The notes: generated by a model from the letters alone, not told the origin. Counted from the first letter of the stretch, positions 48,445-54,157 are shown. The stretch is 64,000 nt of DNA from an uncultured Gammaproteobacteria bacterium (GCA_964518565.1 CAZFGX010000001.1:669404-733403), one strand, 5' to 3'. Translations and numbers: made by a program.

Positions 48445-48702
48445 CTACAATGTTCCGATACCAATATAAACTTGAACACTATTAGCCTCGACCACCATCA
48501 CTCCTTTATCTACCCACATTTCATCCTTTTTTCCGTTTCCTTTTAGGAGGATCAACTTTTTAGAAATCATCGAAACAAAATTTGCGTGCCCCGGCAATAC
48601 ATCGAATGCACCGACCGTGTTAAATGAGCTTACAGCGGCCAAATTACCTTCAAATATTAATCCACGTCGACTCCGAACTATCACCTTTAAATCGTCTTTC
48701 AT
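48445..48702 (-). CDS. atpC: F-type ATP synthase epsilon subunit (beta-sandwich domain only)
   Basis: 85 aa with an [11 protein letters not shown] pattern. Immediately downstream of atpD with an ATGA overlap. Confidence 0.7.
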
Positions 48703-50090
48703 GCGGTCTTTTTATCCAAATCTGAAACTGAACCAATATACAAAAATTTATCTTCAGGTACCTGATCAAATTTACCCGAGATGATTCCGTCTACACCAGA
48801 TAAAGTATCTTCTAGCTTGACAAATACTCCAGGTTTCCCAGTTTGGGCTTCTGCAACAAAGAAATATTGTGTCATGAAGTTTTTCAGCTTCTTCACACGT
48901 TTATAAAGTAATTGATTTTCAGGACTCAATTCAGATTCACCAACCAAAGACACCATACGTTCTAGGCTTTCAGCCTTTTTCAGCATTACCTGTGCAGCCA
49001 TCGCCGTACGATAATGCCGCTCACCAACCACTCCAGGACTCAAAACAGATGAGGAGGAACTCAACATATCTACTGCGGGTAATCTACCTTCTTGATACAC
49101 ACTACGAGACAGTGTCACCGTCGAGTCTAAATACGGCATAATAGATTGTACCCCTTGATCCAACAAATCGTCAGATGGTACATAAATAGCTTCAATTGAA
49201 CTCACCACACCAGACTTGGTGCTCGTCAGTCGTTCATGAAACATAGCCATTTCAGAAGATAATGTTGCCTGATAGCCATCTTCAGATGGAATAGTATGCA
49301 TCAAGGTGGCCAGTTCATTGCCTGCTTGAGCCAAACGAAATACATTATCAATCAAAAACAACACATCCTTACCCGAATCGCGAAAATGTTCAGCCACAGT
49401 CGCCCCTGCCAGACCAGTCAAAAACCGAATCGCCGCGTTCTCACCCATCGGACCAAATACCAAAGACACATACGGCAAAATATTCCGCACACGCAAGGAC
49501 TCTACCAACTCCTGTCCCTCGCGCACACGCTCACCTACACCAGAAAACACAGAGACATTTTTTCCATCTATTCCCCCACCTACGTTATGCATAATCTCAG
49601 TCAGTAGCAATGTTTTACCTACACCTGCCCCTCCGAACAATCCCATTTTTCCACCCCGCAACAACGGTGAAAACATATCAATTACTTTTATACCAGTAAT
49701 CCAAATTTCTTCTTTAGCAACTACATCAGAATAGTTCAATCTCCTATTAAACAGACTCAATTTATCCTTTGTTGCAATTTGTGCCCCACCATCAACTGCC
49801 TGTCCAAAAACATCCACAACTCGGCCAAGTAGTTGTTCGCCTACCGCAATAGACATCACCTCTTCAGTCCGCCTCACCGTCATTCCTCGAGACAACCGGA
49901 CTCCACTCGTCAGCATCAGACAAAAAAATCTAGCCTCACCTGAAGACTGAGTTACTTTCATACGAATTGCCAAATCATCATCAATCTCTAATATTTCATG
50001 AATAAATGGTTTTGCTCCCAAAAACTCCACCTCAACAATATTTCCTCTTAGACCTACAATTTTTCCAGTTGTTTTGTTTAATTTGTCCAT
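48699..50090 (-). CDS. atpD: F-type ATP synthase beta subunit
   Basis: [11 protein letters not shown] Walker A and a DELS-type region. Confidence 0.95.
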
Positions 50091-50923
50091 AATGAAACTC
50101 CAGAAATCGTTGACAATTGTTTTTTGTTACGAATCTTATGCATGATTCGCACGCGTTCCAATTCGACCTTTGCCAAACGATGATTAATGCTATCAACAGA
50201 TCGATCCAATGCCAACATACGAGAAGCAAACTTTGCCAATTGTGATTCATGCAGAGTCTGTTCAAACAAGCTTCCCAATATCTCGCCTTCAAAAATTCTA
50301 GCAATATCTTCCACAGACGGCTCAAACAAATACTTTGTCGTATCAGTCGACTCATCTACTGTCTCACTGACTATTGCATCCCCAGAAACAATTGTTTCCA
50401 CAGGTATCTGTGACAACAAAGTTTTGAATTGACCGTGGAATACATAAATACGCTCAAACTGTATCAAATAGCGCATTATCATATCAAACCCTTCCATATC
50501 AATGCCTTCATCCAAAAAATCGAAATAATTAAAAAACACCGAATTTAATTTATCTTGCATCGTCTTCATACCCACCTTACCCAAAACAACCACATCGGGT
50601 GAATTGGCCTGCACAAATTCCGAAAACCGCACAAATGTCCTATCCACAATATCCCCATAAAGACCAGCATTTGAAGATACAAATACAGCTACAGTTCTTC
50701 CATTCATCCTCCTTGCCTCTTTTGGTTTATTTGGTAAAAGTTTATACGCTCTTCGGACCTTTTTAAAAACCCCGACTAGGCCATCCATAAAGGTTCGTGA
50801 CTGTAACACTGCACCACGAACACGTTGCATCCTGGTCGCAGCCACCTCTTGATATACCTCAACTAAACTTTTTAATCCAAACAAACCATCTATCTCAAGT
50901 AATATTTGTTTTTTACTAATCAT
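50078..50923 (-). CDS. atpG: F-type ATP synthase gamma subunit
   Basis: Position between alpha and beta. N- and C-terminal helices typical of gamma. Confidence 0.8.
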
Positions 50924-50925
50924 AT

Positions 50926-52359: not shown

Positions 52360-52826
52360 AACTCAAAATACCCCCTAATCCAGTCAGATTGTTTTGAAAA
52401 AAAGTCTAAAAATTTCGTCTTAAATGATAAATCAATATAATTTCCCTTATAAGAAATAGTCGCTCCAGATATCAACCCTGGATTGTAAATAAATTCGACA
52501 AGACAGGCCTCAGAAATATTCTCTTTCACCCATGAAACGATGCTATTTTGTGATTCCGAATCTAAATTTATGGCTATTCGCAACTCTACAATATCCATAG
52601 CTAATATTTGCTCAGATATTTGAGATAGCAATCCTTTACGAGGCAAAATATCAGTTCTATCTTCAATATTAGAATCTAAAAACAACCTCAAATTATCAGC
52701 AATCTTTGAGGATTGCTGACTAATAACAGTTGGAGTAAATATAGATTTACTTAATTGATCTATTTCAAATAACCAATCAATCTGCTCTGATCTCGTACCG
52801 ATTTTTTTAAGAAGTTCAGAATACAT
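52356..52826 (-). CDS. atpH: F-type ATP synthase delta (OSCP) subunit
   Basis: Size and position. The C-terminal ISGATISYKGNYIDLSFKTKF resembles the delta C-terminal strand motif. Confidence 0.6.
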   Translation of the reverse strand: MYSELLKKIGTRSEQIDWLFEIDQLSKSIFTPTVISQQSSKIADNLRLFLDSNIEDRTDILPRKGLLSQISEQILAMDIVELRIAINLDSESQNSIVSWVKENISEACLVEFIYNPGLISGATISYKGNYIDLSFKTKFLDFFSKQSDWIRGYFEL

Positions 52827-53373
52827 GCCCCTCCTTTGCTTCTTCCAAACTTTTTAAAATAAATTCCTTTTGGGTTTCCGGTTTTATTGAATCAGACAAA
52901 ACTTTTAAAGACAGTTCTTTGATAAAAGACATCATGCGGTTATTAATTTCAATAATTTTTTTCTGCTTATAATCATCCACTTGTTGTTCTGCGGTTTTTA
53001 ATAATTCCCGCATTTTATCGTCTACAATATTTTTACCTTCAATTATTTCCCGCACACTCGAATCTTCGATATCTTTTGATACCTTTTGTATTGTTTGTTT
53101 ATATTCTTTGAGTTCTGTTTCATTTACCGCATCTAGTTTTGAATCAAGACTATTTTGAATTTTCTTCGCATCTACATGAGCCGAGTCAACGATTCTTATT
53201 GCTTCTGCGTTTGCATCATCAATAATCCTCTTTGCACGAGCCTTCAATTCTTTCTCGTGTTCAGAGTTTACAGATTCCAGCTTTGATATTTTCCGCATCC
53301 GAAGCTGATATACCCACAACAATGCTGCTACACAAATTGCCAGTAATAAAACAATAATATGTTCAATAATCAT
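52816..53373 (-). CDS. atpF: F-type ATP synthase subunit b
   Basis: Single N-terminal TM helix followed by a long charged coiled coil. Operon position. Confidence 0.6.
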   Translation of the reverse strand: MIIEHIIVLLLAICVAALLWVYQLRMRKISKLESVNSEHEKELKARAKRIIDDANAEAIRIVDSAHVDAKKIQNSLDSKLDAVNETELKEYKQTIQKVSKDIEDSSVREIIEGKNIVDDKMRELLKTAEQQVDDYKQKKIIEINNRMMSFIKELSLKVLSDSIKPETQKEFILKSLEEAKEGHVF

Positions 53374-53377
53374 ATAA

Positions 53378-54157
53378 TTAGAGTATCAGAATAATATAAG
53401 CTAATACCAGGCCTGCGACCATAATGAGCATCGTAAAGAGTAAATTCAATAACACATGGACCTGAATTGCCTTGGATGCCAGTGGATTTCGTCCCATTGC
53501 CTCGACTCCAGTTCTGCTGACCCTGCCAAAATAGAAAAAGCCCAATATAAAGGCAAATATTGCAATAAGTATAGCCAACAAATATCGAAGAGATGCCAAA
53601 GGTGTCAATGAGGGAGCCAACAATCCAGACTTCAGTGTATCTACCAAATTATCTCGAGCCGATGTAGCGACAATAGCAGGACGAATACCAATCGCCACTT
53701 CTATTCTCCCGACTTGAGTAGAATCGGTATTTAAATAATCTTCAAAGGCAATTCCAATAATGTTTCCACTTTTGGTCGCTCGTTGACCCACCCCTGGTAC
53801 CGTTGACGTAGTAATAAAATCCCCTTGGTGAATTGCGCCGTTTATTGTCGATACCTGAATAAACGCATTCCCCGATGAAACAACAGTTTTTGGATCAACA
53901 GAGCCGGATGATTGCAAAATAATTGCTGGAGACTCGGAAAACACACCAAACGCATTCACCGCATATTCAGAATTACATAAATTCAAACCAGTATTCGAAG
54001 AACAAACGATTGCTCCATCTTTTAGTTCAGCTGAATTAATTTCCACAGACACTGCAACACCCGATGAAGTAGTTTCTACAGCTTGAACACGAAAAACACT
54101 TACAAATAAACACAAAAACACTGCCAATAAGCTAAATAATATTTGTCGCGCGAGCAT
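53378..54157 (-). CDS. secreted beta-rich domain protein with C-terminal two-TM hairpin, first gene of the atp operon, in the place of atpB/atpE
   Basis: Signal peptide, then a domain clearly homologous to the C-terminal domain of the giant protein (GD.ITSS.IPGVG.KAT..G.I.G.A.E....GRI.V.I), then two TM helices bracketing a GRNP loop. No carboxylate in helix 2. Confidence 0.6.

What the first reader, a model, noticed from the sequence alone, without database searches (positions are those of the whole stretch)
48445..54157. ATP synthase operon without a and c subunit genes, abutting a giant-gene locus
atpF-H-A-G-D-C are contiguous on the minus strand, but the expected upstream atpB and atpE are replaced by the unusual gene above, and then by the divergent giant gene 2. 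Either Fo a/c are encoded elsewhere (an operon split by insertion of the giant locus) or the complex is non-canonical.
Basis: seen in the sequence. Interest (0 to 1): 0.5.

Follow-up and report, generated by a model that had tools for sequence, protein, structure and literature searches.

The report
Ion-blind F-type ATPase with crowned rotor
This ultra-small (CPR/Microgenomates) bacterium carries a rotary ATPase operon that has no channel subunit a. Its rotor subunit c has lost the ion-binding acid and gained an outward-facing domain shared with the giant surface proteins encoded next door, so it is probably not a normal ATP synthase or ion pump.

Summary
The six genes atpF-H-A-G-D-C are real and contiguous on the minus strand (48445-53373). 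The "unusual gene" upstream (53378-54157) does not replace atpE. It is a remodelled atpE with three parts:
- a signal peptide;
- a ~140-aa extracytoplasmic beta domain with the fold of the phage phi29 gp12 autochaperone and of capsid-decoration proteins;
- a C-terminal c-subunit hairpin.

The hairpin keeps the F1-binding R-N-P loop in 268 of 268 relatives. The ion-binding carboxylate position is never Asp or Glu.

No a subunit (atpB) is found in the window or in 97 related loci. The layout is the standard one for Microgenomates-type CPR bacteria:
- 28 of 29 loci with enough downstream sequence have the F1 genes;
- about 46 of 52 loci have the divergent gene with an N-terminal HTH, usually giant, upstream.

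This refutes the idea that the giant locus split the operon by insertion. The giant proteins carry a domain homologous to the c-fusion ectodomain.

Kantor et al. (2013) noted unrecognisable "a, b, c" genes in WWE3/OP11 operons but did not resolve them.

Best reading: an ATPase that does not translocate ions and is driven by ATP hydrolysis, with a rotor ring that displays an external crown linked to the giant surface proteins. Whether a and c genes are absent from the whole genome could not be tested.

The parts
53378..54157 (-). c-fusion gene (remodelled atpE), 259 aa. It is the first gene of the operon, 4 nt upstream of the b-like gene.
   Evidence: ORF. 249 homologues in Microgenomates (Amesbacteria, Woesebacteria), and JGI names some of them 'ATP synthase subunit c'. 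AF2 model with pLDDT 89.4. 529 cluster representatives with E<=1e-30 in the exhaustive search.
54080..54157 (-). Signal peptide, aa 1-26, with a likely cleavage site after V-Q-A.
   Evidence: The sequence itself and helix 2-19 in the model. Longer relatives replace it with an HTH plus a TM anchor. The cleavage site is inferred.
53654..54079 (-). Extracytoplasmic beta domain, aa 27-168, with a conserved Cys52/Cys61 pair.
53381..53602 (-). c-subunit helical hairpin, aa 186-259. The R223-N224-P225 loop is at 53483-53491. The carboxylate-equivalent codon 243 (Met) is at 53429-53431.
   Evidence: for homology. for conservation: RNP in 268 of 268 sequences. Position 243 is I81, V71, L63, F18, A15, M8, T5, G5 and never D or E.
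52816..53373 (-). b-like peripheral-stalk subunit, 185 aa, one N-terminal TM helix plus a long helix.
   Evidence: Weak NCBIfam/Pfam hits to F-type b and V-type E/G. A profile of 11 orthologues hits ATP synthase b chains: 9o19_X 6e-5, 6fkf_p 0.005, 9itj_U 0.016.
52356..52826 (-). delta (OSCP-like) subunit, 156 aa.
   Evidence: Pfam OSCP E=1.3e-4, 22.5 bits against a cut-off of 22.3. OSCP is also recorded for the orthologues.
50926..52359 (-). alpha subunit, 477 aa.
   Evidence: ATP-synt_ab 7e-70. TIGR00962 scores 393.5 bits, below its cut-off of 484.45. Walker A GDRKTGKS and the PAIN..SVTRVG Arg-finger region are visible in the sequence.
50078..50923 (-). gamma subunit, 281 aa.
   Evidence: Pfam ATP-synt 4.8e-20.
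48699..50090 (-). beta subunit, 463 aa, with catalytic motifs intact.
   Evidence: Aligns end to end with E. coli beta 3oaa_D, 2e-110. [15 protein letters not shown] and LFLIDN are kept. TIGR01039 scores 436.4 bits, below its cut-off of 462.85.
48445..48702 (-). epsilon subunit, 85 aa: the beta-sandwich only, without the inhibitory C-terminal helices.
   Evidence: ATP-synt_DE_N 6e-11, covering aa 5-78. The orthologues in 38 loci have the same truncated form.
44911..48432 (-). ArgRS (46699-48432), M16 peptidase (45403-46686) and NDK (44911-45384). They run in the same direction, are syntenic in relatives and probably belong to the same transcript. A terminator-like hairpin lies at 44546-44565.
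   Evidence: Pfam, synteny, terminator scan (the number of sites is not above chance).
54158..54526 (.). Divergent intergenic region, 369 bp and AT-rich, with two ~30-nt direct repeats (54189-54218 and 54317-54346).
   Evidence: A promoter-like TTGACA-17-TAGCAT lies at 54191-54163 (a consensus match only).
54527..64000 (+). Giant gene 2, more than 3150 aa and open at the window end. It has an N-terminal MerR-type HTH (aa 14-59), then a TM helix, then a huge extracellular part.
   Evidence: MerR 1.6e-14. A gene with the same N-terminus lies divergently upstream of the c-fusion in at least 41, and about 46, of 52 loci. The complete relative in L004 carries the ectodomain-like domain at aa 1460-1570.
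28078..28428 (+). Domain in giant gene 1 (13063-29262, 5399 aa) that is homologous to the c-fusion ectodomain.
   Evidence: Ectodomain HMM E=1e-27. BLASTP 39% identity over 89 aa, E=5e-16. Pfam Peptidase_G2 IMC domain, 30.9 bits against a cut-off of 25.

Best explanation
This is the form of the F-type ATPase that is typical of Microgenomates (OP11)-type CPR bacteria, and it is not a chemiosmotic machine.

Shown:
- The operon encodes a complete F1 head (alpha, beta, gamma, and an epsilon that lacks its inhibitory C-terminal domain), a peripheral stalk (b-like, delta) and a c-subunit homologue.
- It encodes no a subunit.
- The c homologue lacks the membrane carboxylate that carries H+ or Na+.
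- The c homologue is fused at its N-terminus, on the outside of the cell, to a beta domain of the trimer-forming phi29-gp12-autochaperone / capsid-decoration fold.
- The same domain sits near the C-terminus of the giant surface proteins whose genes flank the operon.

Inferred:
- The c-fusion still forms a ring that binds gamma and epsilon, because its R-N-P loop is invariant.
- F1 hydrolyses ATP. Its catalytic residues are intact and there is no epsilon brake.
- The torque turns or strains a ring that carries a crown of extracellular domains. It does not move ions.
- The crown interacts with the giant surface proteins, for example in their anchoring, assembly or movement.

The ATPase would therefore serve the cell surface and not energy conservation.
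For: - The hairpin is a c subunit.
- The carboxylate is absent family-wide. Position 243 is I, V, L, F, A or M in 268 of 268 sequences, and only 4 sequences have any acidic residue at the TM edges.
- The R223-N224-P225 loop is present in 268 of 268 sequences.
- No a subunit is found in the window. None is found in about 800 kb of 97 related loci (best E=0.48). No ATP-synt_A or ATP-synt_C Pfam hit is recorded for any called neighbour gene.
- The operon order is conserved: 28 of 29 loci with at least 6 kb downstream have alpha, gamma and beta.
- F1 is under strong constraint. Similarity to the L001 orthologues in bits per residue is 1.50 for beta, 1.28 for alpha and 1.31 for gamma, against 1.13 for ArgRS. 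The beta motifs are intact.
- Epsilon lacks its C-terminal domain in 38 loci.
- The ectodomain fold and the conserved Cys pair.
- The domain is shared with the giant proteins.
- The divergent HTH-bearing gene (usually giant) is conserved upstream.
- In the complete WWE3 genome, Kantor et al. 2013 (PMC3812714) found alpha, beta, gamma and epsilon, but only unrecognisable "a, b, c" genes next to them. They also reported a "putative c" shared with OP11 operons.
Against: - Only 64 kb of a ~1.0-Mb genome could be read, so a canonical atpB/atpE pair elsewhere is not excluded.
- The b and delta subunits are retained. This implies a membrane stator partner, which is unidentified and could be a divergent a subunit.
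- In some relatives the c-fusion has an N-terminal cytoplasmic HTH plus an extra TM helix. If these are not cleaved off, they would hinder free rotation past the b stalk.
- One Amesbacteria lineage has deleted F1 but keeps an intact c-fusion. The c-fusion may therefore have a function that does not need F1.
- Ring formation, ATPase activity and any contact with the giant proteins are all untested.
- A neutral Na+ site, for example the conserved N238/T242, cannot be formally excluded.
Confidence: 0.6

Rival explanations
1. The enzyme is an ordinary ATP synthase or ion pump. Canonical atpB and atpE lie elsewhere in the genome as a split operon. The c-fusion is an accessory protein, for example an assembly factor, an anchor or an occasional ring member.
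For: - The whole genome could not be searched.
- b and delta are retained, and in known enzymes they exist to hold the a subunit.
Against: - The c-fusion sits exactly where atpE sits, immediately before the b gene, in every locus.
- Its F1-binding loop is invariant.
- As far as I know, split atp operons keep a, c and b together, whereas here b stays with F1.
- No a subunit or canonical c subunit is found in 97 loci.
- The complete WWE3 genome yielded no recognisable a or c subunit (PMC3812714).
Confidence: 0.15
2. The ATPase is a decaying relic. Ion coupling was lost and F1 has little or no function. The c hairpin has been co-opted only as a membrane anchor for a surface domain that works with the giant proteins.
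For: - F1 is deleted in the Amesbacteria 47_9-type lineage while the c-fusion stays intact. Remnants of b and of the beta C-terminus are visible.
- b and delta evolve fast, at 0.33 and 0.20 bits per residue.
- All subunits score below the NCBIfam equivalog cut-offs.
Against: - 28 of 29 distinct loci keep alpha, gamma and beta.
- The catalytic motifs are intact.
- alpha, beta, gamma and epsilon are conserved more strongly than ArgRS.
- A cytoplasmic R-N-P loop that is invariant in 268 of 268 sequences is hard to explain for a mere anchor.
Confidence: 0.15
3. One reading: a normal atpIBEFHAGDC operon was recently broken by insertion of the giant-gene locus, which displaced atpB and atpE.
For: The giant gene abuts the operon, at a distance of 369 bp.
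Against: - The same junction, with the same N-terminal HTH on the divergent gene, is found in at least 41, and about 46, of 52 relatives. These include lineages with only ~54% beta identity.
- atpE is present as the fusion.
- Where the sequence upstream of the giant gene is visible, no a or c gene lies there.
Confidence: 0.03

Closest known systems
Canonical bacterial F1Fo ATP synthase (atpIBEFHAGDC)
   Same: - The gene order c-b-delta-alpha-gamma-beta-epsilon.
- The beta and alpha catalytic motifs.
- The gamma/epsilon central stalk and the b/delta peripheral stalk.
- The c hairpin with its cytoplasmic R-(Q/N)-P loop.

   Different: - There is no a subunit in the operon or its neighbourhood.
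- The c subunit has no membrane carboxylate, and its GxGxGxG motif is degraded.
- The c subunit carries a signal peptide and a 140-aa outside domain.
- Epsilon lacks its C-terminal helices.
- Every subunit scores below the NCBIfam equivalog cut-offs.

Mycoplasma F1-like ATPases: type 2, the M. mobile gliding motor (G1-ATPase), and type 3, the MSC_0618/0619 family
   Same: - F1-derived alpha/beta ATPases that have lost ion-translocating Fo.
- From my own knowledge: they are thought to power events at the cell surface, and in M. mobile they work together with giant surface proteins.
- Here too the operon is linked to genes for giant surface proteins.
   Different: - This is not a member. Beta scores 343.7 against a cut-off of 850 for glide_MMOB1670, and 334.1 against 570 for MSC_0618_beta. 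It is closer to true atpD.
- The present system keeps the b, delta and c homologues. To my knowledge the Mycoplasma clusters lack recognisable homologues of these.
N-ATPase (alternate F1Fo; atpDCQRBEFAG)
   Same: It is also a divergent F-type operon.
   Different: - From my own knowledge, N-ATPases keep a and a carboxylate-bearing, Na+-binding c subunit, and they lack delta.
- Here delta is present and a is absent.
- The alt_F1F0 models score far below their cut-offs: beta 399.5 against 752, alpha 358.7 against 750.5.
c-type hairpins without a carboxylate, as in the Acetobacterium woodii c1 subunit and V/A-type multi-hairpin proteolipids
   Same: Individual hairpins that lack the ion-binding Glu do exist in working rotor rings. 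A. woodii c1 appears among the weak hits (4bem_J).
   Different: From my own knowledge, other hairpins in those rings still carry the carboxylate. Here the only c homologue found lacks it in all 268 sequences.
phi29 gp12 C-terminal autochaperone (Peptidase_G2 IMC domain) and phage capsid decoration / cement proteins
   Same: - The giant proteins' copy of the domain passes the Pfam Peptidase_G2 cut-off.
   Different: - The domain is not in a phage. It is fused N-terminally to a membrane hairpin.
- No PHROG match.
- The window protein itself has no Pfam hit.
- Autoproteolysis and trimer formation are untested.

Membership tests
Canonical F1Fo ATP synthase | alpha3beta3 catalytic head with Walker A/B motifs, catalytic Glu and Arg finger | tested here: met
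   Pfam ATP-synt_ab 7e-70 and 4e-56. End-to-end alignment with E. coli beta, with [15 protein letters not shown] and LIDN kept. The alpha motifs are visible in the sequence.
Canonical F1Fo ATP synthase | Central stalk (gamma, epsilon) and peripheral stalk (b, delta) | tested here: met
   gamma 4.8e-20, the epsilon N-domain 6e-11, delta OSCP 1.3e-4 (borderline). The b profile hits b chains at 6e-5. Epsilon lacks its C-terminal domain.
Canonical F1Fo ATP synthase | c subunit: a helical hairpin with a cytoplasmic R-Q/N-P loop | tested here: met
   RNP is invariant in 268 of 268 sequences.
Canonical F1Fo ATP synthase | c subunit: a membrane-embedded Asp/Glu that binds H+ or Na+ | tested here: not met
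   The aligned position is Met243 in the window protein. In 268 relatives it is I, V, L, F, A, M, T or G and never D or E.
Canonical F1Fo ATP synthase | a subunit (PF00119) with the essential Arg, encoded with the operon | tested here: not met
   None in the window (phmmer; Pfam scan of the multi-TM ORFs). None in 97 related loci (mini-profile best E=0.48). No Pfam record on the neighbouring genes.
Canonical F1Fo ATP synthase | a subunit present anywhere in the genome | not testable with these tools
   Only the 64-kb window and stretches of +-10 kb around related loci can be read. Kantor 2013 reports no recognisable a or c subunit in a complete WWE3 genome.
Canonical F1Fo ATP synthase | Passes the NCBIfam equivalog thresholds (atpD, atpA, atpG, atpC, atpH) | tested here: not met
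   atpD 436.4 < 462.85, atpA 393.5 < 484.45, gamma 63.3 < 194.45, epsilon 33.8 < 67.25, delta 16.6 < 57.5.
N-ATPase (alternate F1Fo) | alt_F1F0 subunit models are matched and the operon lacks delta | tested here: not met
   TIGR03305 399.5 < 752 and TIGR03324 358.7 < 750.5. A delta (OSCP) gene is present.
Mycoplasma F1-like ATPases (types 2 and 3) | Family-specific alpha and beta models (glide_MMOB1670/1660, MSC_0618/0619) | tested here: not met
   343.7 < 850, 360.7 < 600, 334.1 < 570 and 277.9 < 520.
Peptidase_G2 IMC / phage cement-decoration domain (ectodomain only) | Sequence match to the Pfam models | tested here: inconclusive
   The window protein has no Pfam hit. Among 51 relatives scanned at E<=10, XM1_gp53_minor_capsid matches 23 (best 2e-4), Phage_cement_2 matches 5 and Peptidase_G2 matches 4. 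The homologous domain in the giant proteins passes the Peptidase_G2 cut-off.
Peptidase_G2 IMC / phage cement-decoration domain (ectodomain only) | The shared fold | tested here: met
   [not shown]
Peptidase_G2 IMC / phage cement-decoration domain (ectodomain only) | Trimerisation and autoproteolytic release | not testable with these tools
   No multimer prediction or biochemistry is available here.

The most novel reading that the evidence does not exclude
A previously unrecognised type of prokaryotic surface motor. An F-type rotary ATPase has given up ion translocation, and its c-ring passes ATP-driven torque across the membrane to a crown of extracellular domains. The crown engages megadalton surface fibres that carry the same domain. 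These fibres could serve attachment to the host, movement, or remodelling of the surface in episymbiotic CPR bacteria. This would be convergent with the F1-derived gliding engine of Mycoplasma mobile, but it would retain the ring and the peripheral stalk.
Probability: 0.18. Interest if true: 0.9.

Novelty: new variant of a known kind. Interest (0 to 1): 0.7.

Why it matters
Reviews treat the "F-type ATP synthase" as nearly universal in Patescibacteria. They use it to argue that these cells make ATP from a proton gradient, or keep up a gradient by running the enzyme in reverse (PMC11665869).

For a large branch this inference probably fails. The family has 529 sequence clusters at 50% identity and includes Woesebacteria and Amesbacteria. 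Its enzyme has no ion-binding site and no visible ion channel. That changes energy-budget models for these organisms.

It also gives ATP-synthase researchers a natural case of a c-ring separated from ion transport and decorated on the outside. And it gives CPR biologists a concrete, testable link between an ATPase and the enigmatic giant surface proteins.

Tried and rejected
- **Window genome in the gene index.** The look-up by the c-fusion failed. The look-up by beta found only short Logan contigs of the same organism, so the genome could not be walked.
- **Genome-collection scan with beta.** It returned only 4 loci, all of the same type. No close relative with a canonical operon was obtained to supply a lineage-matched a-subunit query.
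- **Single-sequence phmmer with E. coli a and c, Bacillus PS3 c and I. tartaricus c.** Run against all window ORFs, they gave nothing significant. This is a weak test. It was backed up by Pfam scans of the multi-TM ORFs, which turned out to be an M50 peptidase, an HTH-dCache protein and TPR membrane proteins.
- **Gap between the c-fusion and b in L007, L009 and L011.** I checked whether it hides an a subunit. It holds a phosphoglycerate mutase.
- **Long c-fusion variants (390-530 aa).** I checked whether they contain a fused a subunit. Their extra N-terminus is an HTH plus one TM helix.
- **PHROGs scan of the ectodomain.** No hit.
- **afdb50 fold library.** Unavailable.
- **Literature searches.** Beyond Kantor 2013, none described the fusion, the missing carboxylate or the missing a subunit.
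- **Promoter and terminator scans.** The counts are not above chance.

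
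Full report
**1. What is in the window**

Seven tightly packed minus-strand ORFs lie between 48445 and 54157.
- epsilon: 85 aa, ATP-synt_DE_N 6e-11, the beta-sandwich only;
- beta: 463 aa;
- gamma: 281 aa;
- alpha: 477 aa;
- delta: 156 aa, OSCP 1.3e-4, just above the Pfam cut-off;
- a b-like protein: 185 aa, one TM helix plus a long helix.

A profile of 11 b-like orthologues hits ATP synthase b chains at 6e-5, alongside coiled-coil noise. Beta aligns end to end with E. coli beta and keeps [15 protein letters not shown] and the Walker B Asp. All subunits nevertheless score below the NCBIfam equivalog cut-offs, and far below the cut-offs for N-ATPase and for the Mycoplasma F1-like families.

Downstream, 12 nt after epsilon, come ArgRS, an M16 peptidase and NDK. 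A terminator-like hairpin follows NDK. Upstream there is a 369-bp AT-rich spacer. Then, on the opposite strand, a giant gene starts at 54527 and is still open at 64000.

**2. The "unusual gene" is atpE, heavily remodelled**

The 259-aa product of 53378-54157 has no Pfam hit. Its last ~75 residues are nevertheless a c-subunit hairpin:
- A phmmer search of the PDB returns only c subunits, with best E=0.006.
- A family profile does the same.
- hhalign of the family hairpin against nine canonical c subunits gives E=8e-5 over 69 columns.
- The AlphaFold model (pLDDT 89.4) superposes on chloroplast, Chloroflexus and Spirulina c subunits with TM 0.72-0.89, rmsd 1.2-1.7 A and 25-30% identity.
- JGI labels several relatives as subunit c.
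- The gene sits where atpE sits, 4 nt before the b-like gene.

The predicted topology is consistent with this. A signal peptide and two conserved cysteines place the N-terminal domain outside the cell. The two helices then put the R-N-P loop in the cytoplasm, as in every c-ring.

**3. The hairpin cannot carry ions in the known way**

In all alignments the canonical Glu/Asp aligns with residue 243, which is Met here. I examined 268 family members: the 120 nearest homologues plus 148 further sequences from the list of 50%-identity cluster representatives. At this position they have I81, V71, L63, F18, A15, M8, T5 and G5, and never D or E. Only four sequences have any acidic residue at all, and those lie at the TM edges.

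The cytoplasmic loop R223-N224-P225, which docks on gamma and epsilon in known enzymes, is invariant in 268 of 268 sequences.

**4. No a subunit is visible**

- Nothing in the window resembles atpB.
- The window's multi-TM ORFs are an M50 peptidase, an HTH-dCache protein and TPR membrane proteins.
- In 97 related loci, about 800 kb in total, an a-subunit mini-profile finds nothing (best E=0.48). A canonical c profile hits only the c-fusions.
- No neighbouring gene carries an ATP-synt_A or ATP-synt_C Pfam record.

The rest of the ~1.0-Mb genome could not be read, so absence from the whole genome is an inference.

Published support comes from Kantor et al. 2013. [quoted passage not shown] The adjacent "a, b, c" genes lacked homology to known subunits, and the "putative c" resembled a TM protein in OP11 and WWE3 ATPase operons (PMC3812714). 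Their three unrecognised genes very probably correspond to the c-fusion, b and delta described here.

**5. The layout is the lineage standard and not an insertion scar**

The family is large: 249 homologues at 90% clustering and 529 representatives at 50% clustering with E<=1e-30. Named members are Amesbacteria, Woesebacteria and "Microgenomates group".

Among 83 distinct c-fusion loci:
- 28 of 29 with at least 6 kb downstream have alpha, gamma and beta.
- 46 of 49 with at least 1.5 kb downstream have b, delta or alpha.
- 41 of 52 with at least 1.5 kb upstream have a divergent gene with the same HTH N-terminus as giant gene 2. Five more have it slightly further away.

These relatives are deep, with beta only ~53-56% identical.

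Variations on the layout:
- a phosphoglycerate mutase inserted between the c-fusion and b;
- a c-fusion that itself begins with an HTH and a TM helix in place of a signal peptide, and still heads the operon;
- one Amesbacteria lineage in which F1 has been deleted, leaving stubs of b and beta, while the c-fusion stays intact.

**6. The outside domain and the giant genes**

An HMM of this domain hits giant gene 1 in the same window at 28078-28428 (E=1e-27, 39% identity over 89 aa). It also hits the complete relative of giant gene 2 in L004. Both of those regions pass the Pfam Peptidase_G2 IMC cut-off.

The rotor protein and the neighbouring giant surface proteins therefore share an extracellular module. 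In some lineages they also share the HTH-TM N-terminus.

**7. How it most likely works**

Shown: an intact F1, an epsilon without its inhibitory helices in 38 loci, a peripheral stalk, a c-like protein with a conserved F1-docking loop, no ion site and no local a subunit.

F1 is under stronger constraint than ArgRS. Similarity to the L001 orthologues in bits per residue is 1.50 for beta, 1.28 for alpha and 1.31 for gamma, against 1.13 for ArgRS.

Inferred: the enzyme hydrolyses ATP and applies torque to a ring that does not translocate ions. The ring displays a crown of domains outside the cell, and that crown works with the giant surface proteins.

The weak points are these:
- The stator partner implied by b and delta is unidentified.
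- The extra N-terminal TM/HTH in some variants poses a steric problem for rotation.
- The c-fusion survives without F1 in one lineage.

Rivals are a canonical a/c pair elsewhere in the genome, a decaying relic with a co-opted anchor, and a recent insertion. The last is contradicted by synteny.

**8. Comparison and novelty**

The system works most like the F1-derived surface ATPases of mycoplasmas, but it is not a member of those families. It is a derivative of the true F-type enzyme. It fails two defining features of that enzyme: the c carboxylate, and the a subunit locally.

The oddity was flagged in 2013 but left unresolved. I found no paper that describes the fusion, the missing carboxylate, the missing a subunit or the link to the giant proteins.

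Verdict: a real, conserved, new variant of a known kind, of considerable interest.

Noticed in passing
window 54527-64000 (+); 11235-13070 (+); proteins P0237, P0242, P0249, P0255, P0261, P0262, P0265; L014 9534-9755: A recurring design: an N-terminal MerR/HTH_17 DNA-binding-type domain, then one TM helix, then a large extracellular part. It occurs in giant gene 2, in a 611-aa HTH-TM-dCache protein just upstream of giant gene 1, and in long c-fusion variants. In L014/L015 it appears as a stand-alone 73-aa HTH gene divergent from the operon. This could be a family of membrane-tethered regulators. An M50 site-2-type protease gene lies at 41227-42006.
   Followed up: partly
window 13063-29262 (+): Giant gene 1 encodes 5399 aa. 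Its start overlaps the stop of the HTH-dCache gene by 8 nt. It carries a Peptidase_G2 IMC-like domain about 270 aa from its C-terminus. No Pfam hit in its first 600 aa.
   Followed up: partly
window 54189-54218 and 54317-54346: Two ~30-nt direct repeats (CAAnnAATGTCCAAGnTTTTTTCCnGAAAA, 83% identical, 128 nt apart) lie in the divergent intergenic region between the c-fusion and giant gene 2. Weaker copies are at 54393 and 54408. They are possible operator sites for the HTH proteins.
   Followed up: no
L004 10750-12500; also L005, L032, L033: In the Amesbacteria RIFCSPHIGHO2_02_FULL_47_9-type population, alpha, gamma and most of beta are deleted. The remnants are a 57-aa b N-terminus and a ~130-aa beta C-terminus. 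The c-fusion, ArgRS, M16 and NDK stay intact. The deletion is seen in independent assemblies.
   Followed up: yes
L007 4710-6392; L009 4951-6663; L011 10806-12488; also L062, L079, L080, L090: A gene for cofactor-independent phosphoglycerate mutase (560-570 aa) is inserted between the c-fusion and the b-like gene in a Woesebacteria-type subgroup.
   Followed up: partly
window, whole length: The giant genes are markedly richer in G+C (about 0.44-0.51) than the housekeeping stretch between them (about 0.36-0.44). GC skew is negative throughout.
   Followed up: no
L006, L007 (record titles): Two public MAGs that carry this Microgenomates-type operon are titled 'uncultured Gammaproteobacteria' and 'uncultured Pseudomonadales'. 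The taxonomy labels are probably wrong.
   Followed up: no
window 29222-30880 (-) and 30840-32864 (-): Two large multi-TM proteins follow giant gene 1 on the opposite strand: one of 552 aa with ~12 TM helices and no Pfam hit, and one of 674 aa with many TM helices plus C-terminal TPR repeats. Their function is unknown.
   Followed up: no
window 53378-54157 (-), residues N238, T242, R191, Y192: The conserved polar residues in and around the hairpin have no canonical counterpart. N238 is N, H, S or Q in all 268 sequences. T242 is conserved in 82%. R191 is R or K in 265 of 268, and Y192 is conserved in 261 of 268. Their role is unexplained.
   Followed up: no
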